Origin: an uncultured Eggerthella sp.
GTDB taxonomy: Bacteria; Actinomycetota; Coriobacteriia; Coriobacteriales; Eggerthellaceae
Assembly: GCA_900538545.1 (NCBI GenBank)
Contig: UPYK01000004.1
Coordinates: forward strand, 30,098 to 94,097
DNA: 64,000 bases
Reading direction: 5' to 3'
Each line of letters starts with the position of its first letter. The stretch's first letter is position 1. Positions 1,127-49,977 of this stretch are shown one piece after another. The notes beneath the pieces were generated by a model, which was not told where the DNA came from, ran no database searches, and worked only from the letters and a program-made list of their open reading frames with translations. The position numbers and the translations under genes were made by a program.

Positions 1127-2185
<1,059 letters not shown>

Positions 2186-2280: not shown

Positions 2281-3360
2281 CTATTTCTTTGCGATCTTTT
2301 TCGCAAGCCAAAAGGCTTTATACATACGTAATCTCAAAAGAGAAACAAGTATTGCCGAATTAGTACATCCAAGATGCGATATCTCAAGCGTCTTTGATGC
2401 ATCGAAATAAGGTGCTGATTTAGCGAGAGAAATGAATTCAGCATAACGATCAGATTCTGAAAGCGGGTTTTGTGGATTGAGGAAATAGGTTTCCATCGAC
2501 TTATTTAAGTAGATGAACTTGCGAAGACTAAGGCCTTTCCTGAAATTCTCCCCTTTGTTGTTCGCATCAATGAACGACTCGATCGCACGGTAAACATTTT
2601 CGTACTTCGAGAATGGCGCGCCACCGAATTTGCGCGTTATCGAATTGGGAACATGCCGATAAAAATAGGTTGGACAGGAGATATATGAAACAGACTCAGC
2701 TTTCTCTAATACATTCAAAATGAAGGTGCCATCATCGAACAAGCCCTGAAGTGAAGGGTCGAATCGTAAGCCGTTCTCCCTGATCAGCGATCGCTTTATA
2801 AGGTAATGCCATGCAGCTCCCACACCGCGAAGCATGACAACGGCATTTCGTTCGATACGCGCAGGACCCATGTTGAACACTGCAAGCTGCACTGCATCGA
2901 TCTCATCTCGCGATTTGGTAGAGAACTCCTGACTCGCAACTTGATAAGTTGTTTTTCGCGCTTCCGAAAATGCAATATAATCGCTCAGAACCACATCGAC
3001 ATGCGTCTCTTGAGCTCGTTCATAAAGAACCTCCATCGCGTTTTCAGCCAAATAGTCATCGGCGTCAAGCAAGAATACATACTCCCCCCGCGCCTTCGCT
3101 AATCCATCGTTTCGGGCAGCGCTTACTCCTTCGTTCTTCTTATGAATAACCGTGAAACGCTCGTCTTTTGCCGCAAAAGAATCTGCAATCGCGCCACTTT
3201 CATCGGGACTACCATCATCAACTAGGACTGCCTCGATGTTTGATAAAGTTTGAGCCTGGACGCTCTCCAAACACTGTTCAAGGTAAGGTTCCACATTATA
3301 GATGGGAACGATAATGCTTATGGCGGGTGTAGATGAGTTCACTGGCGCTATAACTCCCAA
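2281..3360 (-). CDS. family-2 glycosyltransferase
   Basis: N-terminal ISIIVPIYNVEPYLEQCLESVQAQT...VLVDDGSPD GT-A fold signature and a DAD motif (LLDADDY). Confidence 0.8.
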   Translation of the reverse strand: MGVIAPVNSSTPAISIIVPIYNVEPYLEQCLESVQAQTLSNIEAVLVDDGSPDESGAIADSFAAKDERFTVIHKKNEGVSAARNDGLAKARGEYVFLLDADDYLAENAMEVLYERAQETHVDVVLSDYIAFSEARKTTYQVASQEFSTKSRDEIDAVQLAVFNMGPARIERNAVVMLRGVGAAWHYLIKRSLIRENGLRFDPSLQGLFDDGTFILNVLEKAESVSYISCPTYFYRHVPNSITRKFGGAPFSKYENVYRAIESFIDANNKGENFRKGLSLRKFIYLNKSMETYFLNPQNPLSESDRYAEFISLAKSAPYFDASKTLEISHLGCTNSAILVSLLRLRMYKAFWLAKKIAKK

Positions 3361-3464: not shown

Positions 3465-4922
3465 CTATTTATGAAAACGCGCTTTCAAACCATTTGTGAA
3501 TTGCGCCATAAGAGGATTCTTCGTAACGACTCCCCACACGTAGGCAAGTATGCCGAAAACGAACACACCCACCACAATTTCCAAAATCAGGCCCTGAACG
3601 CTCAAGCCCCATAGAGCATCGAATGCCCCCGCTGAAGCACGAACTGCCAAGAACATCAGTGCACCACACACGATAAAAGGTAGTGAATTCTTCAAGTATC
3701 TCAAAAGCGGCAATTCCTTATGCGTCATAACAACTTGTGCTACCAGCACCGATATCTCTGCGCACACCGTCGCAATAGCAGCGCCCATCGCAGCAAAATG
3801 CGGGATCAGCGCGATATTGCAACATATATTCACCACTGCGCCAACACACACCGAAATCGTGAAGAGCTTGTCGCGGTCGGTTGGCAAAAGATATTGCCTC
3901 CCGAGCACGTTGGTCATCGAAACGATGGGGATGATAACAGCCAATACGCTCATCAGACTCCAACAGGAAGCAAATTGATCTCCTAAGAATACCGGAGCGA
4001 ACTCTGGTGCGATTGCAATGATCCCGAACATAAGCGCGAATGCCATAGCGAGCATCGCTCCTATTGACCCTTGCAAAAGATCAAGTGCTTTCTCATGATT
4101 CCCTGCATGCAATTCGGCAGTCATGCGCGGCAACATCACCGTTCCCATTGCCGTGATCACCGCCATAGGCATACGAGATAACTTCTCGGAATACTCGAAG
4201 AAGCCCGTTTGGGTCATATTGGTCATAGCACCCAGCATCACCTTGTCCAATGTCACATAGAAACTGATTGCAATAACTGGGATGAACAAGCGGAGATTGG
4301 GGCCCATGTGCTTACGCACGCCAGCAATCGAGGGTCGTGCGATGTCCACGTAACGCTTCAAGAATGGCCACAGAAGCACCTGGTTCACCAGATAGCTTCC
4401 TGCAATAGCCGCGCAGTAGATCCAAAGATCGTCCGGCGTACGAATGAACACGAAGATAACAACAAGGCTTGCAACTTTAGTAATGATGGAACGAATAGTG
4501 GGTATCTTGAATTCCTCAACGCCGAAGAACAGCCATGTTATATCGAGAACAGCGGAAATAACCCACATGCCCCAAACGCAAGCAAGCAAGAATCCACCTT
4601 GAGGATCGGTAAACATATAGAGGACATACACAGCGACAACGATCGCACTCGCTAGAAGCTGGCAACTGAACATCCCCCAAAACGTCTCTGTTCGCTTTGC
4701 GCGATCTGCACCGCATGCTGCAATCTCGCGCACGCCATACGATGACATACCCAGCACGATGAACATCACGAAATAGTTAGTGATAGAAAACGTGTACGAA
4801 TACACGCCGACCTGCGATGCGCCCAACACGCGAGAAAGAAAAGGTGTCGTAATAAGCGGTGTTAATATGAGCAGCAACTGATACGTTGCTTGATACAGGA
4901 AGTTCTTCTTTATGCTCGCCAT
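3465..4922 (-). CDS. PST/MOP-family oligosaccharide flippase (Wzx-like)
   Basis: 485 aa with about 12-14 predicted TM helices. The N-terminus (QATYQLLLILTPLITTPFLSRVLGASQVGVYS) is typical of polysaccharide biosynthesis protein C / Wzx family. Confidence 0.7.
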   Translation of the reverse strand: MASIKKNFLYQATYQLLLILTPLITTPFLSRVLGASQVGVYSYTFSITNYFVMFIVLGMSSYGVREIAACGADRAKRTETFWGMFSCQLLASAIVVAVYVLYMFTDPQGGFLLACVWGMWVISAVLDITWLFFGVEEFKIPTIRSIITKVASLVVIFVFIRTPDDLWIYCAAIAGSYLVNQVLLWPFLKRYVDIARPSIAGVRKHMGPNLRLFIPVIAISFYVTLDKVMLGAMTNMTQTGFFEYSEKLSRMPMAVITAMGTVMLPRMTAELHAGNHEKALDLLQGSIGAMLAMAFALMFGIIAIAPEFAPVFLGDQFASCWSLMSVLAVIIPIVSMTNVLGRQYLLPTDRDKLFTISVCVGAVVNICCNIALIPHFAAMGAAIATVCAEISVLVAQVVMTHKELPLLRYLKNSLPFIVCGALMFLAVRASAGAFDALWGLSVQGLILEIVVGVFVFGILAYVWGVVTKNPLMAQFTNGLKARFHK

Positions 4923-6262
4923 GAGACGCGCCTATCCGCTATGCTCGCTCTATCCTTGCGACTCGAAACATATTTGATGATCCAGAAGATGATCAAAAGG
5001 TAAATAATTTTATAGATCATGCTTATCGTGAAGATATTCTCATAGAACTTGTTCGAAAAGAAACAGAGAATAAGAGCATAGGCAACCATCGTGTACACGA
5101 TCACCCAAAGCCCCGAATAGCTCCCGCTATTGAGCAACTTGCATTTTCTATAGGCCAGCTGGGAAATCGCTGCCATGAGTCCTGTCAGAACAACACAACC
5201 TACCACACCGAAGTCATACAAAAACGCATAGAACGTCGTGTATACATTTCCTGTACTTACGCCATTCACCGTATTGAATGGCAAATCATACTGATAGATA
5301 AATTCGGGAATAGAGAACTGTAAGCCGATCCATCGAATCGAATTGCGAAATGTCATGTATCCAAAAATGCCACTACTGCCATATTGAGGATCAGACTGAA
5401 TGAACGTATCCAAATTAGGCAATTGAGCACCGATATATGACGATAAGTAGCCCAAACCGTCTGAAGAAGTAGTTCTTCCTTGCAAAACCGCAGCGACCGA
5501 TTGAAACGAAACCAAGAAAAGCACTGCAACACAAACCAGCGCGAAAACTGCTCTTACATCAATAACGGGTCGATCGTTTTCAAGCTTTCGCTTAAGAATG
5601 AAGAAAGCGAGCACAAAACAAAAGATATATCCTGCCGCTACGGTTCGATTCGCACTTGTCAGTTGCAGTGCGCAAGCAAGTAAGAGACCAAGTAATTGGA
5701 TCCAACGGCCCTGGTTTTTCTTCAGAACAAACGATTGCGCAAGATAGAACGCAAAAACATAGCCAAGCATACTCACTATGCTGCGCAACTGGCTCAAAGG
5801 CGTATAGAAAATATTGGCACCTTCATCGGTGAACTTGATCGCCGAATTATACCTGCTGATCGAACCTGGAATCGTCTCTGCTGGAAAAGCTGCTAGGATC
5901 TCCACCATCGACCAATAGAGAACAACCGCTTCAAGTACCACAAAAGCAAGCAACAACCCTTTATTCACAGGAAGTATCCAGCTTCGTTCGTCGCTGCTCG
6001 CAGAGACGGCCTCTTTCTTCTTGCCCGCAACAGAACAGAGATATGAAACTGCAACAAATACCGCAACACCCAGTAAAACGATTCCGAACACTTCAGGCGA
6101 CATCTCATAAGCCCATCGATCGGTAAAGAACACTGCTGAAAGAGCACAAAGCGCGAACCCGATCACGAACAAGAAAGCAGGAGAAAGCATATCTTGACCG
6201 TTCAAGATATAAATAGCCACACAGCTGCAGAGGAGAATGATGAAAAGAAAGAGCTGAATCAT
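4910..6262 (-). CDS. polytopic membrane protein, Wzy/EpsG-like repeat-unit polymerase candidate
   Basis: 450 aa, many TM helices with a large periplasmic-looking loop and no soluble catalytic motifs. It overlaps the wzx-like gene by 13 nt. Confidence 0.45.
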   Translation of the reverse strand: MIQLFLFIILLCSCVAIYILNGQDMLSPAFLFVIGFALCALSAVFFTDRWAYEMSPEVFGIVLLGVAVFVAVSYLCSVAGKKKEAVSASSDERSWILPVNKGLLLAFVVLEAVVLYWSMVEILAAFPAETIPGSISRYNSAIKFTDEGANIFYTPLSQLRSIVSMLGYVFAFYLAQSFVLKKNQGRWIQLLGLLLACALQLTSANRTVAAGYIFCFVLAFFILKRKLENDRPVIDVRAVFALVCVAVLFLVSFQSVAAVLQGRTTSSDGLGYLSSYIGAQLPNLDTFIQSDPQYGSSGIFGYMTFRNSIRWIGLQFSIPEFIYQYDLPFNTVNGVSTGNVYTTFYAFLYDFGVVGCVVLTGLMAAISQLAYRKCKLLNSGSYSGLWVIVYTMVAYALILCFFSNKFYENIFTISMIYKIIYLLIIFWIIKYVSSRKDRASIADRRVSWRA

Positions 6263-6273
6263 AAACCTGAAGA

Positions 6274-7344
6274 CTACATACTCCCAAAGGTCTCATCGAC
6301 AAGGCTTCGTATCCCCTGTCCCTTGGAAATCTGGGGGCCAACAAATTGCCCCCCGCTGTTCCCCTCGACGAGAACCCATCCTTTTGTTTCGGAAAGCGCT
6401 AGATCCCAGCCGACATACTTTTGTTCAGGAAGCACGGTAGGTAGCTCTTTGACGAGCTTGAGCAATTCCTCCCACTCGGGAATCTGAAAGCCCACGAGCG
6501 GGATACCAGTATCAGGGTGCACTTCAATCACTTCGCCATATTCGGTTTTCCCCGGTGTTGTGATCTTACCAGTGGCTTCGTCTATCGCTGCAAGAAAGCC
6601 TCCTGCACCACCATTGTCCACTACGCTCTCGCCACGTCCGATCTTGATAAAGCACGCGATCGTATGCAGCTGTTCACCATTAAGATAGGTAGCATAGCGA
6701 ATCGTGTTGACGCTCTGCGGATGTAGCTGCGCAATCCGCTGATCCTGATCGATCAGCTCCTCGACCACGCAAGCGCCCGCTTCCAAAAGCGCTTTGAATG
6801 CTGCTCGTATCTCTTCTTCTGTTCGGGGCGAAGCCTCTTTCCTGATGCCGTTTCCACGCGATGCTGCAACTGGTTTAGCCATATAGTGGTCATGACGCGA
6901 AACGAATTGTTTGAACGCTTCAAAGTCCGCTTCGCTTTTTACTTGAACCACATCACGCTTGAAGTATTTCTGGAAACTCTCGTAGGTCTTCATCTTATCC
7001 ATGAACACCATGCCTGCAGGATTGCTATTGTAGAGTCGAGCACACAATACCGTACGCTCTAGATCTCCTACAAACTCATGTTTCTCAGCTTCTGTCTTCG
7101 AAGCGAAATCATACAAGAAGTACTCGTCAGGCGTTATAAGGTGATTGCGCATGTCCCTCTGAACTGCTCTTTCCAGTTTGCTGCGCTCGGGAAAAGGAAG
7201 GCTGGTGCCACAAAACACATCAATGACCTGAGCGATCTCTTCGGAGTGGGACGCTTGTCTGCGCGCCACCACTATCCTTCGAAGAAGCGGGGTTGGAAGG
7301 CTCAGCACAGCTCTCTTCAACGCTTGTTTCACGCCTGAACTCAA
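6274..7344 (-). CDS. ATP-grasp-like protein (sugar-transfer-associated ATP-grasp type)
   Basis: 356 aa soluble protein. The central region (AKPVAASRGNGI...) resembles ATP-grasp_ST proteins found in polysaccharide loci. The OCD-like gene stop is 2 nt upstream of its start. Confidence 0.45.
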   Translation of the reverse strand: MSSGVKQALKRAVLSLPTPLLRRIVVARRQASHSEEIAQVIDVFCGTSLPFPERSKLERAVQRDMRNHLITPDEYFLYDFASKTEAEKHEFVGDLERTVLCARLYNSNPAGMVFMDKMKTYESFQKYFKRDVVQVKSEADFEAFKQFVSRHDHYMAKPVAASRGNGIRKEASPRTEEEIRAAFKALLEAGACVVEELIDQDQRIAQLHPQSVNTIRYATYLNGEQLHTIACFIKIGRGESVVDNGGAGGFLAAIDEATGKITTPGKTEYGEVIEVHPDTGIPLVGFQIPEWEELLKLVKELPTVLPEQKYVGWDLALSETKGWVLVEGNSGGQFVGPQISKGQGIRSLVDETFGSM

Positions 7345-7346
7345 GA

Positions 7347-8411
7347 CTACCTCTTCTGAGCGTTCCCGGGCGAATCGTTGACCTTCCCAAGATCAAACAC
7401 ACTGAACGGAACATCTTCTAAGGACTGACCCAGTCCCAACTTCTTGCAGGCATCGATCAGAAATGCTGTCATATACACATCGGTAAAAGCCAGACCGATA
7501 GAATTAAAGTACACGATCTCTTCCGAAGATTCTCTGCCAGGTTTCTTACCTGCAACCACCTCAGCCAGCTCTGCGTAGATATCCTCATCGGCAAGTAGGC
7601 CATCTTGATACATGTGCGAAATGGTGGGAGAACCGCGATGCTTGAGCGCCTCCCATGAATCACACACGATCTTGTCCGCCTTTAAGGCCACCGCATATTC
7701 GTCTTCTATTCCGCCAACATGGCAATAATAAGCGCCTGGTTTTACCCAATCCGCTTTGAGCAAAGGAACTTGACCACTAATAGCAGTTACGATGATATCT
7801 GCCCCACGGGCCGCCTCTTCGTATGACGAATTGCAACACTGAATATCCAGATCAGGAAAGAGAACTGCAGCCGCAGACGCAAAACGCTGCTCATTTTGCG
7901 GATTGCGCGAGGCAACGCGACATTCTTTAAGGCTCGGGAATAGTTTGGCCAGGACAAACAGATGCATAAACGCCTCTTCGCCCGACCCCAACAGCCCAAT
8001 GCTCTTCGGCTCGTGCGGAGCAAAATACTTTGCGCCCAGTGCCCCTACGAGCGCTGTCCTCAGCGCTGTTGGAAAGCCCGCATCAAGCACAGCAAGGGGG
8101 GCTCCGTTTTCCGCACTCAAGGCGAGTATCATTCCCGACACATTAGGCAAACCAGTTTTCGCATTGCCAGGAAAGACCGATACGAGCTTCACGCATGAAT
8201 ATCCTAAGGAAGGCACTGTGCAAGGCATGCAATTCACACGCGACTGGTCAACCTCATTAAGTATTTGCGAAGCCTTTTCAGGAAGAATAACCTGTCCATC
8301 TTCGTACGCCTGAAATCCCTTTTCGAGGCAATCCAGCATAACAGCTACATCTGATGAGAGTGCAGCCTGGGCCAGATCTTCATTATTAAAAAACCGTACG
8401 TTAGCCATCAT
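7347..8411 (-). CDS. ornithine cyclodeaminase / mu-crystallin family NAD(P) enzyme
   Basis: Rossmann segment IGLLGSGEEAFMHL...VASRNP and family-typical length and architecture. Start taken at ATGATG at 8411/8408, 5 nt after the upstream gene stop; the ORF also allows a GTG at 8423. Confidence 0.65.
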   Translation of the reverse strand: MMANVRFFNNEDLAQAALSSDVAVMLDCLEKGFQAYEDGQVILPEKASQILNEVDQSRVNCMPCTVPSLGYSCVKLVSVFPGNAKTGLPNVSGMILALSAENGAPLAVLDAGFPTALRTALVGALGAKYFAPHEPKSIGLLGSGEEAFMHLFVLAKLFPSLKECRVASRNPQNEQRFASAAAVLFPDLDIQCCNSSYEEAARGADIIVTAISGQVPLLKADWVKPGAYYCHVGGIEDEYAVALKADKIVCDSWEALKHRGSPTISHMYQDGLLADEDIYAELAEVVAGKKPGRESSEEIVYFNSIGLAFTDVYMTAFLIDACKKLGLGQSLEDVPFSVFDLGKVNDSPGNAQKR

Positions 8412-8416
8412 GTCCC

Positions 8417-9709
8417 CTAACACGCTGCATCAAGCGGTCGGTCAACAAAGCAAGATAATGCCTCGTTATCCCGCGGGTCGAAGAGCGAGAAGAGCATATC
8501 GTTGCCATCAGAATCGACAACCTGAATACTATCAAGAATCGACCTCATCGAATCAAGCAGTGCAGGTAGATTCTCGCCCTTCAAGTGCACATAAGCGAAC
8601 ACCTGCTGAGCGGAACCCCAATCGGCGATCTCATCGCCAACGTAATGAACTTGGACGAGAGCGATGTATTCCGGTAGATTTGGAAGCTGGTCGATCCCAG
8701 AGATCTGCGCGATCTTACCTGCATGAAGATGCAGCGGCCAAATCGCATATACTCCATCGAAACATGGCTTTACCTGGAGCTCTTCGTCTTTGTTACCCAT
8801 CGCATGGCTAATCTCCAGCTTAAGTTGATCTACACCATAGAGCTCGCGCACAAGATGATAGGTAAGCGATCCGCCAAAACGATATCCGATTTCGTTCACT
8901 ATGAATTTGCCGCCCGCATAGAAGAGCTCGAGCCAGATAGGACCTTCCTTCATGCCGAGCGACGCAAGCAAACATCGCATCTTCTCATCTGTAGTATCGA
9001 GGTATTCCTGGGTGTGAACAGAGGGCGCAATCTGAAGCGACATGATCGGCGCACCTTCCACTCCCATCTTCTGCGAAGCTTTGTCGGTAAGCCCGCAAAA
9101 ATAGATACTCCCCTCATGGGCGGTATATTGAACGATCAACGCATCAGAATCGACGAATTCCTCGATCAGCGCTTCGCCACAGAACGAATGCTCCTTCGCA
9201 AATAAGATAGCCTCGGCAAGCTCTTCGGGCGTTTTGCATTTTGTGAAACCTCTGCTGCCACTTCCATCACGCGGCTTTACTGCAAGAGGATAGGCTGAAA
9301 GAGGCAGGTCGTATGCCTCAGCTTCAGTATATTCATCCGAAACAGCAAGGCCAGCTCCACGGCAAGCTTCCTTAAAACGAGGCTTATCATCGCACAGATC
9401 TTGCTGCGCCTCAGTGCAATAACAAGGCAATTCGAGCATCTCGGACAACGCCGCCATTTTGCGCAAGTTGAATTCATGTACGCCAGAAAGAACGCCATCG
9501 ATCTTTTCCTCGATACAGCGCTGTTTCAATGCACCAAGATCTGCAGTGCTGAGTTCCCAACTTGCATCAGCGATCTGTTTCGCAGGCGAAGCCGCAACGG
9601 GCAGATAGTCTGCTACTACGACATAAAACCCTTGGTCTTGAGCCGCTCGAACAAGCTCGCACGAGCCTATGGGCTTTCCCCCTAAAACAAGAAGTTTTCG
9701 CTTGCTCAT
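8417..9709 (-). CDS. ATP-grasp domain ligase (carboxylate-amine ligase type)
   Basis: N-terminal KLLVLGGKP pre-ATP-grasp fold and a central LAVKPRDGSGSRG ATP-binding region. Start at the ATG at 9709 forms an ATGA overlap with the stop of the upstream sugar transferase gene; the longer ORF to 9742 is less likely. Confidence 0.65.
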   Translation of the reverse strand: MSKRKLLVLGGKPIGSCELVRAAQDQGFYVVVADYLPVAASPAKQIADASWELSTADLGALKQRCIEEKIDGVLSGVHEFNLRKMAALSEMLELPCYCTEAQQDLCDDKPRFKEACRGAGLAVSDEYTEAEAYDLPLSAYPLAVKPRDGSGSRGFTKCKTPEELAEAILFAKEHSFCGEALIEEFVDSDALIVQYTAHEGSIYFCGLTDKASQKMGVEGAPIMSLQIAPSVHTQEYLDTTDEKMRCLLASLGMKEGPIWLELFYAGGKFIVNEIGYRFGGSLTYHLVRELYGVDQLKLEISHAMGNKDEELQVKPCFDGVYAIWPLHLHAGKIAQISGIDQLPNLPEYIALVQVHYVGDEIADWGSAQQVFAYVHLKGENLPALLDSMRSILDSIQVVDSDGNDMLFSLFDPRDNEALSCFVDRPLDAAC

Positions 9710-10515
9710 ATGGCCTTTCCGTCCTGCAATGATCTTACCCATACAAGATATTCTTCAGGGATCTGAGCATCGTTGATCGCGCAGCCATCAAGGTCGTATC
9801 CCATGAAACTTCCTCTCTTGGCAACCGATCGAGCATTCGCGCTCTTGCGATCGAGTGCGAATCGAACAAGATTGATGAACATAGAACAGTCTACCTTAAA
9901 TGAGACGTTCTCCACATACCAGACATCGTTTTCAAGTTGATCATTCCACGTCCATACACCATGAGACAAATCGCGCGGCGGGCATTCTAAGCCAGGACGC
10001 ACATCAAGCCGATGCATATGACGCTTGCTATAACGATCAAGGTACACCTCAGGAAGCGGACGGGGGCCGATCAGGCTCATATCACCCTTCAGGATGCTCC
10101 AAAAATTCAGAAGCTCGTCGAGAGAGGTTTTTCGTACAAATCTCCCCCATTTCGTCACGCGCTGTTCCGGTGGCAGAAGATCGCCGTTTTCTCCGCGCTC
10201 GTTGGTCATATTCCGGAATTTCAAGATAGTGAACGGCTTGCCGTTACGCCCAATACGCTTCTGCCTAAAGAACAGAGGTCGGCCAACATCGAAGAAGGTA
10301 ATGCACCCGATCACAAGATTGATCGGTAAAGTTATGATGAGGGCAATCAAAGAAACAAGGACGTCGAAAAAGCGCTTACCGTACTTCGAATAAAGATTCG
10401 ACGAGGGCGCAATGGGCGCTTGTAGAGCATCGATTCGATCAAGCCGATCATGAGCAAGCTGTTGCCCGATCGCTTTGATCTGTTCTGCAGTTAGATCGGG
10501 TTGGTATGTACTCAA
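9706..10515 (-). CDS. initiating undecaprenyl-phosphate sugar-phosphate transferase (bacterial sugar transferase, small PglC/WbaP-C-terminal type)
   Basis: One N-terminal TM helix, then KRFFDVLVSLIALIITLP...RPLFFRQKRIGRNGKPFTILKFRNM...GPRP, the hallmark of the bacterial sugar transferase family. Confidence 0.85.
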   Translation of the reverse strand: MSTYQPDLTAEQIKAIGQQLAHDRLDRIDALQAPIAPSSNLYSKYGKRFFDVLVSLIALIITLPINLVIGCITFFDVGRPLFFRQKRIGRNGKPFTILKFRNMTNERGENGDLLPPEQRVTKWGRFVRKTSLDELLNFWSILKGDMSLIGPRPLPEVYLDRYSKRHMHRLDVRPGLECPPRDLSHGVWTWNDQLENDVWYVENVSFKVDCSMFINLVRFALDRKSANARSVAKRGSFMGYDLDGCAINDAQIPEEYLVWVRSLQDGKAI

Positions 10516-10555: not shown

Positions 10556-12112
10556 CTACTTCCCTATTGTCTGCGCAAAAAACGAATCGCGGTAATTTGG
10601 CGTTACGAAGTTAGCGTCGAGTCCCTCGCTTAAAGTCTTCACCTTATCGCAAGGTGCAGGGATTTGCTGCATCTCGATCATCTTCACTGGCCCACGCGCA
10701 ATCTCAACCAGCGGTGTTACTGCTCCGACTACCAAACATATTACAAGAATAACTTCAATAGCTTTTGAATGCGCTTTGGCAACCACTGAATCAACAGGTT
10801 TTTTCCGGCGCTCCCTCAGCCACTGGTAGTACGATTGGAGATCCTTATTCAATAAGCGTTTAGTTACCATAACTGCTAGTACCATCAGACCCGGAATCGA
10901 AGCTCGCATCGAAAAATCTGGAGAAGGCCCCATGCGCACCACATTCGCGACCATCAACAAAATAAGCGTACTCCACCAATAGGGGTTTTTTCGCTCACTC
11001 GGTAAAAGCAATAGAAGCAATATACCGCACTCGAGCATAAAGAACACCACAAGCTGTAAAACACGAGTAGGAGTGAAGCCTCCGATGAACGTATGAAAAA
11101 GCAAGGACGATTCTCCCGAATCAGTCAGAGTTGCTCTCTGACTCAGCATCAAGAACAATGCTATGGCGACGAGCGGAATCAGGGCGATCAAGTTCTGCGG
11201 AGAGAAGGCTGCCTTAGCTGTTCTTCGGACACCCTCATCTCTTACTTCACCAACAAGCTTCGCCACTCCAATAAAAAGTAAGCCCATTGTTGGCAGTGGA
11301 CACAAAAATGCACTGAGCGTGCCAACAAAAATATCATTGCTTATCCTTGATGTTGAAAGAACGAGCAACGTAGCTATCCAGGCGGGTATTGCCTGGTTGA
11401 ACACCCAGAACAATTGTGTAGTAAAGCTGCTGAACTGATAGAACCTCGCCCACCATTCTATGTGCACCTTTTCACATAAACGCGTTTCGATAGCTGTAGG
11501 ATTGCCCGTAAGAAGTAACCCGACTATATCCATGCCACTGAAGAAAATGAATATAGCAACAGCTGCAATAATCGCTTTGTGATTAGAGCGCTTGATCAGT
11601 TGCAAGAACAACGTTATTGCAAGAAAAACCCCAAGTGCCACCCAGAACAAAAGCGCAATGTTCGCAACGGTCCATGCAATCTCAAGGCCAAAGTTCATCC
11701 ACAAACACAATTTACCGAACAATGCTGGCAGGAGCCAAAAGCCAAAGTAGTAGCAAAGCGCACTATCATTCCCATACACTACTGGCCAATCGTAGGTTAT
11801 AAGGTCGCGAAAGATCGCATTTCTCGCATTCCAGTCGGAAGACTGATAGAGAAAACCTCCATGGCCTCCTAAAATACACCAGAAAAGAATTGCAACTGCG
11901 ATGCCGACAACCAACGGTATCGAGATATTGATATCGGAAGAACGGAATGCCTCCGTGTTTGTCCTTTTCCAAATGAAGACTAGCCCCACCACAAGCAAAC
12001 CGGCTACCACTAAGAAATAAGGAGCTTTCAACCAGCCAAAAGACCAAATCAATAAAGGCAGCACAAGAAAAGTCAAACCTGCAAAATATGTTTTTCGAAC
12101 AGATAACGTCAT
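10556..12112 (-). CDS. large polytopic membrane protein (GT-C-like or polymerase-like), function unclear
   Basis: 518 aa with at least 12 predicted TM helices. No soluble domain is recognisable. It is embedded in the glycan operon. Confidence 0.4.
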   Translation of the reverse strand: MTLSVRKTYFAGLTFLVLPLLIWSFGWLKAPYFLVVAGLLVVGLVFIWKRTNTEAFRSSDINISIPLVVGIAVAILFWCILGGHGGFLYQSSDWNARNAIFRDLITYDWPVVYGNDSALCYYFGFWLLPALFGKLCLWMNFGLEIAWTVANIALLFWVALGVFLAITLFLQLIKRSNHKAIIAAVAIFIFFSGMDIVGLLLTGNPTAIETRLCEKVHIEWWARFYQFSSFTTQLFWVFNQAIPAWIATLLVLSTSRISNDIFVGTLSAFLCPLPTMGLLFIGVAKLVGEVRDEGVRRTAKAAFSPQNLIALIPLVAIALFLMLSQRATLTDSGESSLLFHTFIGGFTPTRVLQLVVFFMLECGILLLLLLPSERKNPYWWSTLILLMVANVVRMGPSPDFSMRASIPGLMVLAVMVTKRLLNKDLQSYYQWLRERRKKPVDSVVAKAHSKAIEVILVICLVVGAVTPLVEIARGPVKMIEMQQIPAPCDKVKTLSEGLDANFVTPNYRDSFFAQTIGK

Positions 12113-18008: not shown

Positions 18009-18076
18009 ATTTTTCCTAGTTCAATATTGTGCCTCTATTGCATAAATTAAATAGATTCCTCACGGCTGCTCTACTG

Positions 18077-19249: not shown

Positions 19250-19290
19250 ACTGGTCTCCTTGCGCTCGATTACAAATCGGCAAGCCGTGA

Positions 19291-23958: not shown

Positions 23959-23988
23959 AAGTGATACCCCTGTTCAGTATTAGTCATC

Positions 23989-25982: not shown

Positions 25983-25991
25983 GCGCGGTTA

Positions 25992-26789: not shown

Positions 26790-27995
26790 TCATCGAACCA
26801 AAACGTGAATATGTTCGTTGATACCTGCCATATTATCGTTCATCTGCTGTAATGAATCAAATCTCATGAATATGATTCCGAGTGCTTTATTCGCACCATC
26901 AAAGGATTCGATCTGCTCGCCTTCTTGTTCATAAAGAACCGTACGATAGACGCTTGGCGAAAGAACCTCATCGATCTCTATACCATCGAAAATGCCGTCT
27001 TGAAGAGAATGCAAGACATGGGTCGCATAGGCGTCATGCGACAGATCGTAATCGAGGTTTTCGGGCGTTTCTCCCATTGCGCAGAGAACGTTAGCTTCAA
27101 CAAGGTCGATTCCCGATGCGTCGCTCAATTGCACGGGAATCATATTGCCCCCTGCACGTGAACCTAGCTCGATGATATAGGGAGTATTCTCTTTTCCCAG
27201 TATCACTTCCACATTCATCTCACCAAAACGTATACCAAGCGTCCTCACGAGACGCTGAAGAGCATCTTTTATGCTCTTCTTTTGCTCAGCAGAAAGGTTC
27301 GTGGGTGTTTTCTTACCTGTCGGAACTAATTCCACAGCCGCATCACGCACGCAATCCATAAGTCCCCAGAAACGAACCTCTCCATCAATAACGAAGATAT
27401 CGCCCCCGATTACGCAAGGGTACTCCTTCTCGATATACTCTTCAGCAATAAGAACACCGTTATTGTTGATCTTATCGGCAGCTTCTACCGCCAAGACGAA
27501 CGATGCCTGGTCTTCAACAATGGAAACGCCTTTGCTTCCTGATGAATCGGTAGGCTTCACCACGATCGGAAGAGTGAAGCTCTGGAGCGATTCCCATGTC
27601 TTTTCTAGGTCGTCTTTTGCCGAGAACGCCATCGAAGCGGGGCAAGGGAAGCCCTGTTGCTTTAGGTGTTCGCGAAAAAGATGCTTCTGAGACATCGTTT
27701 CGACCGCTGAGAGCGGATTGGTCGGCAAGCCCAATTCTTCGGCAACAGCAGCCGCGATAGGACTTGCGGGGTCAGTCGCATACGCCAGAACGCCTTCGAC
27801 GCGCTCCTTACGAGCAACTTCAAGAACAGCATCTCTATCGGTAGTGCTTACCGGATAATAAACATCTGCGATGAATTGCCCTGGATTATCAGGCAGATAA
27901 TCGCAGAGAACCGTACGATAGCCGAGACGCTTCGCCGTCTCGATCGCAATAAGCTGATGAGGCGATCCTCCGAGCATGAGCAAAGATCTAGTCAT
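26790..27995 (-). CDS. ATP-grasp domain ligase
   Basis: LLMLGGSP pre-ATP-grasp region and a PIVVKPTDSSGSKGV ATP-binding block. Start at the ATG at 27995 with a GGAGG RBS 6 nt upstream, 4 nt after the aminotransferase stop; the longer ORF to 28055 is unlikely. Confidence 0.65.
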   Translation of the reverse strand: MTRSLLMLGGSPHQLIAIETAKRLGYRTVLCDYLPDNPGQFIADVYYPVSTTDRDAVLEVARKERVEGVLAYATDPASPIAAAVAEELGLPTNPLSAVETMSQKHLFREHLKQQGFPCPASMAFSAKDDLEKTWESLQSFTLPIVVKPTDSSGSKGVSIVEDQASFVLAVEAADKINNNGVLIAEEYIEKEYPCVIGGDIFVIDGEVRFWGLMDCVRDAAVELVPTGKKTPTNLSAEQKKSIKDALQRLVRTLGIRFGEMNVEVILGKENTPYIIELGSRAGGNMIPVQLSDASGIDLVEANVLCAMGETPENLDYDLSHDAYATHVLHSLQDGIFDGIEIDEVLSPSVYRTVLYEQEGEQIESFDGANKALGIIFMRFDSLQQMNDNMAGINEHIHVLVR

Positions 27996-29130
27996 GCGCT
28001 GCCTCCAACAGGATCTCGCATATCCGGTCAACGTCTTCGAGGGAAAGATCGGCATACAGAGGCAAGGTTATGACCTTAGAAGCTACTCGCTTGGCGATTG
28101 GCGTAGTATCGCTCGAGTACATCTCTCGATAACAGGCAAAATCAGTAACGAGAGGATAGAAATACTTGCGTGCTCCTATGCCCTGTTCGGCCAACTTATC
28201 GAATATCTCATCGCGCGAGGCTCCAAAGGCGTCGGAATCCACCACAACAGGAAGGTAGGCGTAATTGTGTTCCACATTCGCTGGAGGGATACACAAAGAC
28301 AGTCCCGGCACATCTGAAAGAAGTTCGTAATACCTTTCGGCGACCTGTTTGCGTTTCGCTATCTCACTTGCCACGTGGTGCAGATTGCAAAGCCCCATTG
28401 CAGCAGCAAATTCGTTCATCTTCGCATTGCCACCCACAAAATCACACGACTCAGAGTCTTTCATGCCAAAGTTCGCATGACTTACCAGCTCTACTGCAAG
28501 CTGGGGATCCTTAAAAGAAGCTGCTCCACCTTCAATGGTGTTGAACACCTTCGTAGCATGGAAGCTGAACATGCTCGCGTCGCCAAAACGCGCTACCGAA
28601 ACACCATCTTCCTTCACGCCAAAGGCATGCGCCGCATCATAGATGACTTTCAAATCGTATTTTTTTGCAATGCGCTCGATCTGTTCATGATCGCAAAGAT
28701 TCCCGTATACATGGACGGGCACGATCGCGCAGGTGTTCTCCGTAATAAGCGACTCGATCTTCTCAGGGTCGATCGTATAATCGCTCGAACGAATATCGCA
28801 AAAAACCGGCTTGAGACCTTTGCGAGCCAATGCATTGGTCGTGCTCACAAAGGTAAAAGGAGTGGTGATAACTTCATTACGCCCATCATGCCCCAATTCA
28901 AGGGCTTCAACAATGTTTTCGAGCGCCAAATGCCCATTGGTGAAAAGCGCAAGATTTGACGTGTCCAAAAAACCTTGCAAGGCAGTTTCGAGTTCGCGAT
29001 GTTTTTCCCCTCGGTTAGTAAGCCATCTGCTCTCCCAAAGCGACGCTATTTCAGCGCAATACTCTTCATAAGGAGGCATCGAAGGGCGTGTTACTACTAT
29101 CTGCGAACTAGAAATCGGTATCATCCTCAT
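27988..29130 (-). CDS. DegT-family PLP-dependent aminotransferase, probably dTDP-4-keto-6-deoxyhexose 4-aminotransferase
   Basis: DegT/DnrJ family sequence. Positioned between rfbA and the ATP-grasp gene. Start uncertain: ATG at 29130 or 29124. Confidence 0.8.
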
Positions 29131-30025
29131 AAGAATCGGAAAGAAGGCTTCCGCGCACCCTGCGCTCATATACCGCATAGAGATATTGGCCGTAGGGAGA
29201 TTTCGCATATTTGTCGGCTGCGGCTTTCAGGGTATCGCCGTCGATCCAGCTGTTGTTGTAAGCGATCTCTTCTAGCGATGCGATCTGAATGCCCTGGTTC
29301 TTTTCTACAACACGTACGTATTCCGTTGCCGCATAGAGGCTTTCCATGGTGCCAGCATCGAACCAAGCAGAACCGCGATGCAGCAGCTCTACCGACAACG
29401 AGCCATCTTCCAAATACATGCGATTCAGGTCAGTGATCTCAAGCTCCCCACGAGAAGAAGGAAGGATCTGTTTCGCCCATTCAACTGCGCGGCTATCGTA
29501 AAAATAGAGCCCTGTCACTGCATAATTACTTTTAGGATTCTCCGGCTTTTCCTCAAGAGACACAGCCATGCCATCCTCATCGAACTCAACGATGCCAAAA
29601 CGCTGCGGATCAGGGACATAATAGCCGAATATCGTTGCGCCATAGTCTTTTGTTGCAGCTCTCCTCAAGCGAGAAGTTAAGCCGCCACCGTAGAAAATGT
29701 TATCGCCAAGAGTAAGCGCAACAGAGTCATCTCCGATGAAATCCTCGCCGATGAGCAAAGCCTGTGCTAAGCCCTCAGGATCCAGCTGTTCTTTATATGA
29801 CAGACTCACCCCATATTGGGAGCCATCGCCGAGCAAGCGATGGAATTTTGGAAGATCGCGTGGCGAACTGATCACGAGAATATCTCGAATACCCGCCAAC
29901 ATAAGAATCGACAACGGATAGAAGATCATCGGCTTATCGTATACCGGTAGCAGTTGTTTTGAAGTGACCGAAGTGAGCGGATAGAGACGCGTTCCACTGC
30001 CACCCGCAAGAATAATGCCCTTCAT
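29108..30025 (-). CDS. rfbA: glucose-1-phosphate thymidylyltransferase
   Basis: [18 protein letters not shown]...[16 protein letters not shown]-type sequence. Full-length RmlA. Confidence 0.9.

Positions 30026-49900: not shown

Positions 49901-49977
<77 letters not shown>

What the first reader, a model, noticed from the sequence alone, without database searches (positions are those of the whole stretch)
6274..10515. ATP-grasp / ornithine-cyclodeaminase-family / ATP-grasp trio next to the initiating phosphoglycosyl transferase
Three consecutive, translationally coupled genes sit immediately downstream of the priming sugar transferase: an ATP-grasp ligase, an OCD/mu-crystallin family NAD(P) enzyme, and a second ATP-grasp-like (sugar-transfer-associated) protein. 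OCD/mu-crystallin enzymes make cyclic amino acids from diamino acids or act as ketimine/opine-type reductases. ATP-grasp enzymes form amide bonds. Together inside a glycan operon they look like a cassette that makes a non-standard amino-acid moiety and ligates it to a sugar carboxylate or sugar amine. I am not aware of a characterised polysaccharide pathway with this exact architecture.
Basis: partly seen in the sequence, partly recalled or inferred. Interest (0 to 1): 0.8.

Follow-up and report, generated by a model that had tools for sequence, protein, structure and literature searches.

The report
Peptide-decorated amino-sugar cassette in glycan locus
Two amide-forming ligases and an ornithine-cyclodeaminase-family reductase in a gut Eggerthella-like surface-polysaccharide locus most likely build a short peptide side chain with an unusual N-alkylated residue on an amino sugar, using a gene module previously tied only genetically to Clostridioides difficile flagellin glycans.

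Summary
On the minus strand lie a phosphoglycosyl transferase (9706-10515), an L-amino-acid-ligase-like ATP-grasp I call AG1 (8417-9709), an OCD/mu-crystallin enzyme (7347-8411) and an ATPgrasp_ST protein (6274-7344), with junctions of -4, +5 and +2 nt.

The trio is not the evolutionary unit. In 31 loci the invariant core is AG1 directly upstream of the OCD, and the two are fused into one 780-aa protein in Collinsella. The core usually travels with a sugar aminotransferase and RmlA/RmlB. In the window these partners, plus a third ATP-grasp (AG3), sit at 26790-30025 and 1127-2146. ATPgrasp_ST, AG3 and the transferase are variable accessories.

The literature holds a partial precedent. In C. difficile type B flagellin glycosylation, an ATP-grasp, OCD-like and DegT gene run is required for a cap that is Fuc3N-Gly-[N-(2-sulfoethyl)alanine]. 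That last residue is an opine.

Best reading: the OCD is an NADPH-type imine reductase that makes an N-alkyl (opine-type) amino acid. AG1, AG3 and ATPgrasp_ST assemble a peptidyl amide on a 4-amino-4,6-dideoxyhexose of a Wzx/Wzy polysaccharide. No enzyme here has been tested, and orthology to the C. difficile genes could not be checked. I rate it a new variant of a known kind.

The parts
9706..10515 (-). Small (PglC/WbaP-C-terminal type) polyprenyl-phosphate phosphoglycosyl transferase, the priming enzyme.
   Evidence: PF02397 E 7e-48. TIGR03025 177.7 bits, below its cutoff of 295.55. Present in 17 of 30 related loci.
8417..9709 (-). AG1: L-amino-acid-ligase-like ATP-grasp carboxylate-amine ligase, the obligate partner of the OCD enzyme.
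   Evidence: PF13535 and PF02222 just above cutoff, LAL_C2 weak. Best PDB match is L-amino acid ligase BL00235 (3vot), 1e-11. It is always immediately upstream of the OCD. All OCD-adjacent ATP-grasps form one clade. It is fused to the OCD in Collinsella. Its start overlaps the PGT stop as ATGA.
7347..8411 (-). OCD/mu-crystallin-family NAD(P)H enzyme of a distinct subfamily with the loop H-V-G-G-x-E-D-E-Y. Predicted imine (opine-type) reductase.
   Evidence: PF02423 E 4e-55. It is below the cutoff of every NCBIfam equivalog. Best PDB matches are archaeal AlaDH 1omo (4e-42), Pyr2C reductase 6t3e, CRYM 4bv8 and SbnB 4m54; the true OCD 1x7d scores only 5e-15. R57, K74, R117, S167 and R168 are invariant.
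6274..7344 (-). ATPgrasp_ST ('sugar-transfer associated') ATP-grasp ligase, RimK/LysX-like, with a helical N-terminal region of about 128 residues. A variable accessory of the module.
26790..27995 (-). AG3: second LAL-type ATP-grasp ligase and paralogue of AG1. It overlaps the end of the aminotransferase gene.
   Evidence: PF02786, PF02655, PF13535, PF02222 and ATPgrasp_N. PDB 4dim 1e-22, 3vot 7e-20, BacD. It forms a clade separate from AG1. It sits directly after DegT in L005, L008, L016, L022, L029 and L030.
27988..29208 (-). DegT-family sugar aminotransferase, DesI-like. The true start is probably near 29130. Predicted to make a dTDP-4-amino-4,6-dideoxyhexose.
   Evidence: Best PDB match DesI 2po3, 1.5e-54. 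Best NCBIfam match TIGR04427 PLP_DesI, 277 bits, below its cutoff of 650. Orthologues at 55-63% identity flank AG1-OCD across phyla.
29108..30025 (-). RmlA, glucose-1-phosphate thymidylyltransferase.
   Evidence: TIGR01207 460.8 bits, above its cutoff of 360.65.
1127..2146 (-). RmlB, dTDP-glucose 4,6-dehydratase.
   Evidence: TIGR01181 466.7 bits, above its cutoff of 365.1.
2281..3360 (-). GT2 glycosyltransferase that co-occurs with the module. Candidate transferase of the decorated sugar.
   Evidence: NCBIfam GT2 matches. This family is present in 17 of 30 loci, often directly after ATPgrasp_ST.
3465..6262 (-). Wzx flippase (3465-4922) and a 450-aa multi-pass Wzy-like protein (4910-6262).
   Evidence: Polysacc_synt PF01943 1.5e-30 for the flippase; no Pfam hit for the 450-aa protein. 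Both are conserved in L008, L010, L011 and L016.

Best explanation
The window carries a Wzx/Wzy-type surface-polysaccharide locus (about 20-31640, minus strand) of a gut Eggerthella-like actinobacterium. Within it, seven genes form one biosynthetic module that hangs a short, non-ribosomally made peptide on the amino group of an amino-dideoxyhexose.

Proposed steps:
1. RmlA and RmlB make dTDP-4-keto-6-deoxyglucose. Both families pass their curated cutoffs.
2. The DesI-like DegT aminates it to a dTDP-4-amino-4,6-dideoxyhexose. This is inferred, and a 3-amino sugar is not excluded.
3. AG3, which sits where an N-acetyltransferase sits in bacillosamine pathways, adds a first amino acid to the sugar amine. 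Inferred.
4. The OCD-family enzyme acts as an NADPH-dependent imine reductase. It condenses a 2-oxo acid such as pyruvate with an amine to give an N-(1-carboxyalkyl) 'opine-type' residue. Inferred.
5. AG1, its obligate and sometimes fused partner, activates that residue's carboxylate as an acyl phosphate and joins it to the free amine. Inferred.
6. ATPgrasp_ST, which is RimK/LysX-like, adds a further amine or amino acid to a carboxylate left on the side chain, probably around the glycosyl-transfer step. Inferred.
7. The priming transferase, the GT2, Wzx and Wzy assemble and export the polymer.

The model reproduces the only solved product linked to this gene combination: Fuc3N-Gly-[N-(2-sulfoethyl)alanine] on C. 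difficile type B flagellin.
For: Family assignments.

The genome scan returned 80 loci. With three loci from exact-protein look-ups and the window, that gives 84 members of this OCD subfamily:
- 31 have an LAL-type ATP-grasp immediately upstream, and all of these lie in glycan loci of Coriobacteriia, Clostridia, Erysipelotrichia, Tissierellia and Bacteroidota.
- 53 stand alone in Planctomycetota, Verrucomicrobiota, Synergistales and other mostly environmental lineages.

AG1-OCD coupling:
- OCD-adjacent ATP-grasps form one clade, and AG3 forms another.
- AG1 and the OCD are one 780-aa protein in Collinsella, including isolate C. aerofaciens MCC356.
- Contexts reached independently through AG1 homologues give AG3-AG1-OCD-DegT and AG3-AG1-OCD-ATPgrasp_ST-...-DegT-RmlA-RmlB.

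Link to an amino sugar:
- DegT is present in 21 of 30 loci, often with RmlA/RmlB.
- In Anaerococcus the same module sits on a UDP-HexNAc 4,6-dehydratase / UDP-type aminotransferase / PglC-like transferase pathway. The common denominator is therefore an amino-dideoxyhexose.
- The window locus has no uronic-acid gene.

OCD features:
- R57, K74 and R117 align with residues conserved in the solved AlaDH.
- The beta2 motif V-A-S-R-N resembles NADPH-dependent CRYM (W-N-R-T) rather than the Asp-containing NAD enzymes.
- The catalytic loop is 4 residues shorter than in AlaDH and has the same length as in SbnB, which handles an N-alkylated amino acid.

Precedent:
- In C. difficile, CDR20291_0245 (ATP-grasp PF13535), 0246 (OCD/AlaDH-like) and 0247 (DegT family) lie in a run with rml genes nearby. 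Mutants of 0245 and 0246 lose the terminal peptidylamido-sugar (PMC5207246).
- NMR shows the cap is Fuc3N acylated by Gly, which is acylated by an alanine whose nitrogen is alkylated by 2-sulfoethyl (PMC5207245). That residue is N-(1-carboxyethyl)taurine, the opine tauropine. This is my chemical reading.

From my own knowledge, not checked here: a sponge tauropine dehydrogenase belongs to the OCD/mu-crystallin family.

Chemical precedents for aminoacyl and alanopine-acylated Qui4N in O-antigens: PMC10609480.
Against: - No enzyme of this module has been assayed anywhere. [quoted passage not shown]
- I could not obtain the C. difficile sequences, so orthology with AG1 and the OCD is inferred from shared families, gene order and context only.
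- The C. difficile sugar is a 3-amino sugar, and its first residue is probably added by a FemAB-like enzyme. No ORF scanned in the window locus gave a FemAB hit.
- The stand-alone sister clade in Planctomycetota and related lineages keeps the same loop. The subfamily's chemistry therefore need not involve sugars and could be ordinary amino-acid metabolism.
- The order of steps, the identity of the oxo acid and the amine, and the acceptor of ATPgrasp_ST are all guesses.
- In the window, DegT and AG3 lie about 17 kb from AG1-OCD, with other sugar pathways in between.
Confidence: 0.55

Rival explanations
1. The OCD enzyme is a plain amino-acid dehydrogenase of the archaeal AlaDH type. It supplies alanine or another standard amino acid from its oxo acid and ammonia, and the ATP-grasp ligases attach it to the sugar. 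Any N-alkylation is done by something else.
For: The best NCBIfam and PDB matches are archaeal alanine dehydrogenase. [quoted passage not shown] An NADPH-type site also fits reductive amination.
Against: - The score of 178 bits is far below the AlaDH equivalog cutoff of 409.
- The catalytic loop differs from AlaDH by a 4-residue deletion and an invariant EDEY.
- Alanine is abundant, so strict pairing and fusion with a ligase would be hard to explain.
- In C. difficile the alanine nitrogen is alkylated, and as described in PMC5207246 the locus contains no other candidate alkylating enzyme.
Confidence: 0.15
2. The OCD enzyme is a true cyclodeaminase or cyclic ketimine reductase. It makes proline, pipecolate or a related cyclic imino acid, which AG1 attaches as a prolyl- or pipecolyl-amide.
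For: Family membership is met. There are hits to Pyr2C/Pip2C reductases and CRYM. An SSF (PutP/PanF-like) transporter lies inside one related locus, L095. The Synergistales sister genes lie in an operon with a TRAP transporter and an enolase-superfamily gene, which I read as catabolic.
Against: True OCD and lysine cyclodeaminase are the weakest family matches (1x7d 5e-15, 5gzi 1e-12). The NADPH-type site argues against the tightly bound catalytic NAD+ of cyclodeaminases. The only known product of this gene combination contains an acyclic N-alkyl alanine, not a cyclic residue.
Confidence: 0.13
3. The ligases amidate a sugar carboxylate (uronic or nonulosonic acid) with an amine made by the OCD enzyme, as the Campylobacter jejuni Cj1438 C-terminal ATP-grasp domain does with glucuronate.
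For: Cj1438C is an ATP-grasp amidoligase fused to a GT2. ATPgrasp_ST often lies next to a GT2. In L094 an ATPgrasp_TupA gene is present and no ATPgrasp_ST gene was called in the stretch read. The window also encodes a NeuB-type nonulosonic-acid pathway.
Against: No UDP-glucose dehydrogenase family gene is present in the window locus or in the compact loci. The NeuB genes are absent from most related loci, whereas DegT is the constant partner. This rival may still hold for ATPgrasp_ST alone.
Confidence: 0.07
4. The trio is unrelated to the glycan and serves a small-molecule pathway such as a siderophore, peptide antibiotic or compatible solute. It merely sits inside the locus.
For: SbnB and CmnK (diaminopropionate for siderophores and antibiotics) are family members. 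L-amino-acid ligases make dipeptide antibiotics.
Against: All 31 ATP-grasp-linked loci are glycan loci. None of the neighbouring genes with Pfam annotation is an SbnA-like PLP enzyme, an NRPS or a small-molecule exporter. Junctions with glycan genes are 4-nt overlaps. The C. difficile mutants lose a glycan cap.
Confidence: 0.02

Closest known systems
Clostridioides difficile type B flagellin glycosylation genes CDR20291_0244-0247 (Valiente et al. 2016, PMC5207246; Bouche et al. 2016, PMC5207245)
   Same: An ATP-grasp (PF13535), an OCD/AlaDH-like protein and a DegT-family aminotransferase lie in a run, with rml genes nearby. L015, L021, L045, L089 and L094 have the same gene order. The product is a peptide containing an N-alkylated alanine, amide-linked to an amino-dideoxyhexose. 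The genes are required for that cap.
   Different: - The C. difficile glycan is a flagellin O-glycan, not a Wzx/Wzy polysaccharide.
- Its sugar is a 3-amino sugar with an FdtB-like aminotransferase; here the aminotransferase is DesI-like.
- It has a FemAB-like acyltransferase where the window has AG3.
- It has no ATPgrasp_ST.
- Its enzymology is unknown.
- Sequence orthology was not testable here.
Neisseria meningitidis PglB2 (ATP-grasp / phosphoglycosyl transferase; review PMC11130364)
   Same: An ATP-grasp is physically coupled to the priming transferase, in a pathway where a 4-amino-4,6-dideoxy-HexNAc receives a non-acetyl acyl group (glyceroyl). The ATP-grasp takes the place of the N-acetyltransferase.
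   Different: PglB2 is a single fused protein and its acyl group is a hydroxy acid. It has no OCD enzyme and no peptide. Here the genes are separate (4-nt overlap), and the top 120 ATPgrasp_ST homologues show no fusion to a transferase.
Campylobacter jejuni Cj1438 C-terminal TupA-like ATP-grasp amidoligase (PMC11800379 and its refs 38, 39)
   Same: It is an ATP-grasp that forms an amide on a growing capsular glycan, and it is physically tied to a GT2 glycosyltransferase. It is a plausible functional model for ATPgrasp_ST.
   Different: It belongs to a different Pfam family (ATPgrasp_TupA, not ATPgrasp_ST). Its acceptor is a glucuronate carboxylate, and its amine is ethanolamine or serinol phosphate.
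OCD/mu-crystallin enzymes acting on C=N bonds next to a carboxylate: A. fulgidus AlaDH (1omo), CRYM ketimine reductase (4bv8), SbnB (4m54), CmnK (7cxs)
   Same: The fold, the Rossmann motif and the Arg/Lys/Arg positions are shared. The NADPH-type beta2 motif resembles CRYM. The loop length matches SbnB.
   Different: The window enzyme is below every equivalog cutoff. It has its own invariant H-V-G-G-x-E-D-E-Y loop. It is paired or fused with an ATP-grasp ligase, which none of these enzymes is.
Aminoacyl and opine-acylated Qui4N in Gram-negative O-antigens, e.g. N-(1-carboxyethyl)alanyl (alanopine) in Providencia alcalifaciens O35 and N-(3-hydroxybutyryl)-D-alanyl in E. coli O123 (review PMC10609480)
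   Same: These are chemical precedents for exactly the predicted kind of product on a 4-amino-4,6-dideoxyglucose.
   Different: My literature searches found no genes assigned for these substituents. The organisms are unrelated, and no sequence link was tested.

Membership tests
OCD/mu-crystallin superfamily (PF02423) | Profile match above the gathering threshold over the full domain | tested here: met
   187.3 bits against a cutoff of 24, covering residues 28-324 of 358.
OCD/mu-crystallin superfamily (PF02423) | Rossmann G-x-G-x-x-A motif and the Arg/Lys/Arg carboxylate-binding positions | tested here: met
   G141, G143, A146, R57, K74 and R117 are invariant in 23 homologues. They align with R, K and R of AlaDH 1omo. 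Their role in carboxylate binding is from my knowledge of P. putida OCD.
True ornithine or lysine cyclodeaminase | Equivalog-level similarity | tested here: not met
   NF005762 OCD scores 93 bits against a cutoff of 350. PDB 1x7d scores 5e-15 and 5gzi 1e-12, the weakest family matches.
True ornithine or lysine cyclodeaminase | Canonical G-x-D-x-P-G-K-x-E loop (motif recalled from my own knowledge of the family) | tested here: inconclusive
   The loop was compared only with AlaDH AF1665 (IGADGPGKQELD), not with a cyclodeaminase sequence. Against AF1665 the window subfamily has a shorter HVGGxEDEY loop.
Archaeal-type alanine dehydrogenase (TIGR02371) | Score above the curated equivalog cutoff | tested here: not met
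   178.5 bits against a cutoff of 409.15.
SbnB/CmnK diaminopropionate pathway | Equivalog score, and a partner SbnA-type PLP enzyme in the locus | tested here: not met
   TIGR03944 scores 144.7 bits against a cutoff of 326.9. None of the neighbours with Pfam annotation in the related loci is an SbnA-like PLP enzyme; many ORFs in the 30-locus clustering were not scanned against a profile library.
ATP-grasp, L-amino-acid-ligase type (AG1, AG3) | ATP-grasp profile match, and similarity to solved L-amino-acid ligases | tested here: met
   AG1: PF13535 29.1 bits (cutoff 27) and 3vot 1e-11. AG3: several ATP-grasp families, 3vot 7e-20 and BacD 5e-9. The AG1 match is marginal at Pfam level.
ATPgrasp_ST (PF14397) | Profile match, and an ATP-grasp fold | tested here: met
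C. difficile type B 'peptidylamido-sugar' module | An ATP-grasp, an OCD-family gene and a DegT aminotransferase together with rml genes in a glycan locus | tested here: met
   All are present in the window. They are contiguous in many related loci. In the window itself DegT lies about 17 kb from AG1-OCD.
C. difficile type B 'peptidylamido-sugar' module | Sequence orthology to CDR20291_0245, 0246 and 0247 | not testable with these tools
   No C. difficile sequence could be fetched. None of the top 120 OCD or AG1 homologues looked like C. difficile, and the seven clusters I looked up were named Coprococcus comes or Odoribacter laneus, or were unnamed.
C. difficile type B 'peptidylamido-sugar' module | FemAB-like acyltransferase next to the ATP-grasp | tested here: not met
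   No FemAB (PF02388) hit among the ORFs of the window locus that I scanned. AG3 may fill this role.
C. difficile type B 'peptidylamido-sugar' module | Product is an amino sugar bearing an amide-linked peptide with an N-alkylated residue | not testable with these tools
   This needs glycan isolation followed by MS and NMR.
PglB2-type ATP-grasp/phosphoglycosyl transferase | ATP-grasp fused to the Bac_transf domain in one polypeptide | tested here: not met
   The genes are separate, with a 4-nt overlap. The top 120 ATPgrasp_ST and AG1 homologues show no PF02397 fusion.

The most novel reading that the evidence does not exclude
This OCD/mu-crystallin subfamily is the missing 'opine synthase' of bacterial glycans. 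It would make N-(1-carboxyalkyl) residues (tauropine in C. difficile; alanopine- or carboxyethyl-lysine-like residues elsewhere). Up to three ATP-grasp ligases would then assemble these residues, without ribosome or NRPS, into a peptide stem on an amino sugar. This would be a Mur-ligase-like logic applied to capsules and flagellin glycans, and it is widespread in human gut commensals (Eggerthella, Collinsella, Coprococcus, Holdemanella, Anaerococcus, Odoribacter).
Probability: 0.4. Interest if true: 0.72.

Novelty: new variant of a known kind. Interest (0 to 1): 0.55.

Why it matters
Amino acids and opine-type residues have been found on bacterial surface glycans for decades. They shape charge, antigenicity and phage and immune recognition. 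Yet my literature searches found no assigned enzymes for installing them on amino sugars, apart from genetic hints.

This analysis gives three things:
- It defines a portable gene module: an AG1-OCD core, a sugar aminotransferase, and optional AG3 and ATPgrasp_ST.
- It shows that the module is common in human gut anaerobes.
- It connects the module to the one solved product, which yields a concrete and cheaply testable chemical hypothesis: OCD as opine synthase, AG1 as its ligase.

If the hypothesis is right, it would explain the C. difficile sulfonated flagellin cap. It would also allow peptide-decorated glycans to be predicted from genomes.

Tried and rejected
1. Proline, pipecolate or diaminopropionate supply. 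True cyclodeaminases are the weakest family matches, and no neighbour with Pfam annotation is an SbnA-like partner.
2. Uronic-acid amidation by the whole trio. The locus has no UDP-glucose dehydrogenase family gene.
3. The trio as the conserved unit, or adjacency to the priming transferase as essential. The context tables show otherwise.
4. Using the stand-alone Planctomycetota and Synergistales relatives to read the substrate. Their contexts were orphan genes or an uninformative TRAP/enolase-superfamily operon.
5. Finding ATPgrasp_ST fused to a transferase as in PglB2. None was found in the top 120 homologues.
6. Finding the C. difficile orthologue among the homologue lists and clusters. It was not found. 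P0067 turned out to come from an unnamed gut-metagenome contig whose gene order matches the Holdemanella locus L031.
7. Literature searches combining ATP-grasp with OCD and polysaccharide, with viosamine, and OCD with O-antigen cluster all returned nothing. One query was malformed and one was wasted. Three papers could not be opened: Iyer 2009, Riegert 2022 and Chamot-Rooke 2007.
8. I did not model the OCD structure, because the tools return no coordinates for pocket analysis.

Full report
**What is at the coordinates**

The first 31.6 kb of the window is one minus-strand glycan locus. Its G+C is 0.42-0.50, against 0.53-0.58 for the rest of the window.

It opens with a NusG-like gene and a Wzz-like gene. 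It contains Wzx, two Pfam-less multi-pass membrane proteins, GT2 enzymes, RmlA and RmlB. It also has a NeuB/NeuC/PglD-like/DegT set and a few other sugar-nucleotide genes.

The finding's span holds four genes:
- Priming phosphoglycosyl transferase, 9706-10515, PF02397 7e-48.
- An ATP-grasp ligase I call AG1, 8417-9709. PF13535 and PF02222 are just above cutoff, LAL_C2 is weak, and the best PDB match is L-amino acid ligase BL00235 at 1e-11.
- An OCD/mu-crystallin protein, 7347-8411, PF02423 4e-55.
- An ATPgrasp_ST protein, 6274-7344, PF14397 2.4e-50.

The junctions are an ATGA overlap, a 5-nt gap and a 2-nt gap, each with a purine-rich stretch upstream.

**Organism**

The closest genome loci are uncultured Eggerthella MAGs from gut samples. 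L010 shows a mosaic pattern. Its Wzy, Wzx, GT2 and RmlB are 93-98% identical to the window, but its transferase, AG1, OCD and ATPgrasp_ST are only 71-81% identical.

**What the conserved unit really is**

I collected 80 genome loci encoding relatives of the OCD protein, plus loci found by exact-protein look-ups. I then mapped the window's proteins onto all of them and clustered their ORFs.

- Context split. In 31 loci, counting the window, an LAL-type ATP-grasp lies immediately upstream of the OCD gene, and every one of these is a glycan locus. They come from Coriobacteriia, Clostridia, Erysipelotrichia, Tissierellia and a Bacteroidota MAG.
- Stand-alone relatives. The other 53 relatives (41-45% identical; Planctomycetota, Verrucomicrobiota, Synergistales and other mostly environmental lineages) have no such neighbours. 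They form one clade beside the ligase-linked sequences.
- Two ATP-grasp clades. A tree of the LAL-type ATP-grasps splits cleanly. All OCD-adjacent ones form one clade (AG1). All others form a second clade (AG3), which includes the window's third ATP-grasp at 26790-27995.
- Gene fusion. In Collinsella, including the isolate C. aerofaciens MCC356, AG1 and OCD are a single 780-aa protein with the ATP-grasp at the N-terminus and PF02423 (1e-56) at the C-terminus. This is strong evidence that the two act on the same intermediate.

Partner frequencies among 30 non-redundant loci:

| Partner | Loci of 30 |
|---|---|
| DegT aminotransferase | 21 |
| ATPgrasp_ST | 19 |
| GT2 | 17 |
| Priming transferase | 17 |

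Several of these loci are truncated contigs.

Typical gene orders:
- RmlA-RmlB-DegT-PGT-AG1-OCD-ATPgrasp_ST-GT2
- DegT-AG3-PGT-AG1-OCD-ATPgrasp_ST
- AG3-AG1-OCD-DegT-RmlA-RmlB
- the minimal DegT-AG1-OCD

Two contexts reached independently through AG1 homologues show the same pattern.

In the window the other parts, DegT (27988-29208), AG3 and RmlA (29108-30025), are present but lie about 17 kb upstream. RmlB is at 1127-2146.

**Which sugar**

- RmlA and RmlB pass their curated equivalog cutoffs.
- The module's DegT is closest to DesI, the dTDP-4-keto-6-deoxyglucose 4-aminotransferase (PDB 2po3 1.5e-54; TIGR04427 277 bits, below cutoff).
- Its orthologues at 55-63% identity accompany AG1-OCD across phyla.
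- One compact locus even carries a dTMP-kinase-like gene.
- In Anaerococcus and related Peptoniphilaceae the same AG3/AG1/OCD/ATPgrasp_ST set is grafted onto a different pathway: a PglF-like UDP-HexNAc 4,6-dehydratase, a UDP-type aminotransferase and a PglC-like transferase.

The shared feature is an amino-dideoxyhexose. The window locus has no UDP-glucose dehydrogenase family gene. The acceptor is therefore most likely a sugar amine, probably at C4. A 3-amino sugar cannot be excluded.

**The OCD-family enzyme**

- It is below the cutoff of every characterised equivalog.
- Its nearest solved relatives are archaeal AlaDH (4e-42), a pyrroline-2-carboxylate reductase, CRYM ketimine reductase and SbnB. 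Genuine ornithine and lysine cyclodeaminases are the most distant (5e-15 and 1e-12).
- R57, K74 and R117 are invariant and align with conserved residues of AlaDH. These are the family's carboxylate-binding positions.
- After strand beta2 it has invariant S167-R168 (V-A-S-R-N). This resembles NADPH-dependent CRYM (W-N-R-T). The NAD enzymes AlaDH, the Pyr2C reductase and SbnB have an Asp at this point.
- All 84 members of the subfamily share H-V/I-G/A-G-x-E-D-E/D-Y/F. This loop is four residues shorter than the AlaDH loop. It has the same length as in SbnB (ungapped alignment). From my own knowledge, SbnB oxidises an N-alkylated amino acid.

I read this as an NADPH-dependent reductase of an imine next to a carboxylate, with room for a larger N-substituent. 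In other words, it looks like an opine-type synthase rather than a cyclodeaminase. This is inference.

**ATPgrasp_ST**

In the DSSP trace of the model, residues 1-128 contain only helices.

The gene usually lies next to the GT2 or the priming transferase. Elsewhere it occurs in glycan loci with dedicated small-acid enzymes, or as six tandem paralogues. In L094 an ATPgrasp_TupA gene, the Pfam family named for the Cj1438 C-terminal domain's fold, is present and no ATPgrasp_ST gene was called in the stretch read (PMC11800379).

**The precedent**

My last literature search surfaced two linked papers. In C. difficile RT027/023, downstream of fliC and three glycosyltransferases, lie:
- CDR20291_0244 (FemAB-like)
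- 0245 (ATP-grasp PF13535)
- 0246 (putative OCD with an AlaDH-type domain)
- 0247 (DegT family, FdtB-like)

rmlD, A, C and B lie nearby. Mutants of 0245 and 0246 lose the terminal 'sulfonated peptidylamido-sugar' (PMC5207246).

NMR and MS show that this cap is alpha-Fuc3N whose amine is acylated by glycine. The glycine is acylated by an alanine whose nitrogen is alkylated with a 2-sulfoethyl group (PMC5207245). N-(1-carboxyethyl)taurine is the opine tauropine. [quoted passage not shown] From my own knowledge, a sponge tauropine dehydrogenase is an OCD/mu-crystallin homologue.

An opine synthase plus a ligase explains that structure with the genes at hand. It also matches what the sequence features of the window enzyme suggested independently.

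Other precedents:
- Neisseria PglB2, an ATP-grasp fused to the priming transferase, gives a glyceroyl-acylated 4-amino sugar (PMC11130364).
- O-antigens carry Qui4N acylated with N-acetylglycyl, N-acetylaspartyl, N-(3-hydroxybutyryl)-D-alanyl and alanopine groups (PMC10609480).

**Proposed mechanism**

Only steps 1 and 2 rest on family assignments; every catalytic role below is inferred, as set out in the best explanation.
1. RmlA and RmlB make dTDP-4-keto-6-deoxyglucose.
2. DegT converts it to a dTDP-amino-dideoxyhexose.
3. AG3 adds a first amino acid.
4. The OCD makes an N-carboxyalkyl residue from a 2-oxo acid and an amine.
5. AG1 ligates that residue.
6. ATPgrasp_ST caps a remaining carboxylate.
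7. The transferase, GT2, Wzx and Wzy assemble and export the polymer.

ATPgrasp_ST needs a carboxylate acceptor, and the C. difficile locus as described in PMC5207246 (genes 0244-0247) does not include one. The amine partner in the window may therefore be an amino acid rather than taurine. That would leave a second carboxylate on the opine. This is speculation.

**Limits**

- I could not fetch C. difficile sequences, so orthology to CDR20291_0245/0246 is untested.
- The stand-alone sister clade shows that the subfamily's chemistry is not intrinsically sugar-linked.
- No biochemical data exist for any member.
- The rivals are AlaDH-type supply, a cyclic imino acid, and carboxylate amidation. 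They remain open at the probabilities given in the rival list.

**Verdict**

The cassette is a new variant of a genetically known but biochemically uncharacterised kind. It is common in gut commensals and comes with a sharp, testable hypothesis for the OCD-family enzyme.

Noticed in passing
window 1-31643 versus 32000-64000: The glycan locus has G+C 0.42-0.50 and the rest of the window 0.53-0.58. In Eggerthella MAG L010 the Wzy, Wzx, GT2 and RmlB genes are 93-98% identical to the window, but the PGT, AG1, OCD and ATPgrasp_ST genes are only 71-81% identical. This suggests allelic exchange of the decoration module within a species.
   Followed up: partly
window 15222-20280: A nonulosonic-acid (legionaminic/pseudaminic-type) gene set: Epimerase_2 (NeuC-like), NeuB, a PglD-like hexapeptide acetyltransferase, a second DegT and a 4,6-dehydratase-like SDR. 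It is absent from most related loci, so it is a separate decoration.
   Followed up: partly
window 22177-26768: A thiamine-diphosphate acetolactate-synthase-like enzyme (333 bits, below the ALS cutoff), an SDR, a CBS-domain nucleotidyltransferase and a second NTP-transferase sit inside the glycan locus. This could be a branched-chain or other unusual sugar pathway.
   Followed up: no
window 10556-12112, 4910-6262 and 20318-22135: Three large multi-pass membrane proteins (518, 450 and 605 aa) have no Pfam or NCBIfam hit. They are presumably Wzy-type polymerases or glycan-modifying transferases. The 518-aa and 450-aa proteins are conserved with the module in Eggerthellaceae loci.
   Followed up: no
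L040 6621-8963 and L083 8651-10993 (Collinsella): AG1 and OCD are fused into one 780-aa protein directly after DegT. L040 is from a cultured isolate (C. aerofaciens MCC356), a convenient experimental entry point.
   Followed up: yes
L090 2610-11798: Six ATPgrasp_ST paralogues lie almost in tandem with LicD, a choline-kinase/NTP-transferase fusion, an SSF transporter and an LAL-type ATP-grasp, in a teichoic-acid-like locus.
   Followed up: no
L092 3698-14422: A glycan locus holds a small phosphoglycosyl transferase with fumarase subunits, a 2-hydroxyacid dehydrogenase, an MmgE/PrpD dehydratase, ATPgrasp_ST, a C-C bond lyase, another ATP-grasp and a PGA_cap protein. This looks like a dedicated organic-acid pathway feeding ATP-grasp ligases.
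   Followed up: no
L002, L005, L012, L026, L030, L092, L094: A PGA_cap (CapA-like, PF09587) protein recurs next to ATPgrasp_ST, ATPgrasp_TupA or GT2 genes in these loci, but it is absent from the window.
   Followed up: no
L046 5227-13245 (Acetomicrobium) and other Synergistales loci: The stand-alone sister OCD sits in what looks like a catabolic operon: a TAXI-TRAP transporter, an NAD dehydrogenase, this OCD, an SbnB-like second OCD and an enolase-superfamily enzyme. It may be an opine or imino-acid utilisation system.
   Followed up: partly
L095 12334-13926: A sodium:solute symporter (PutP/PanF-like, below all equivalog cutoffs) lies between ATPgrasp_ST and DegT in one related locus. It may import a side-chain precursor.
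   Followed up: partly
window 49901-49977: A single tRNA-Pro (CGG) gene on the minus strand, outside the glycan locus.
   Followed up: no
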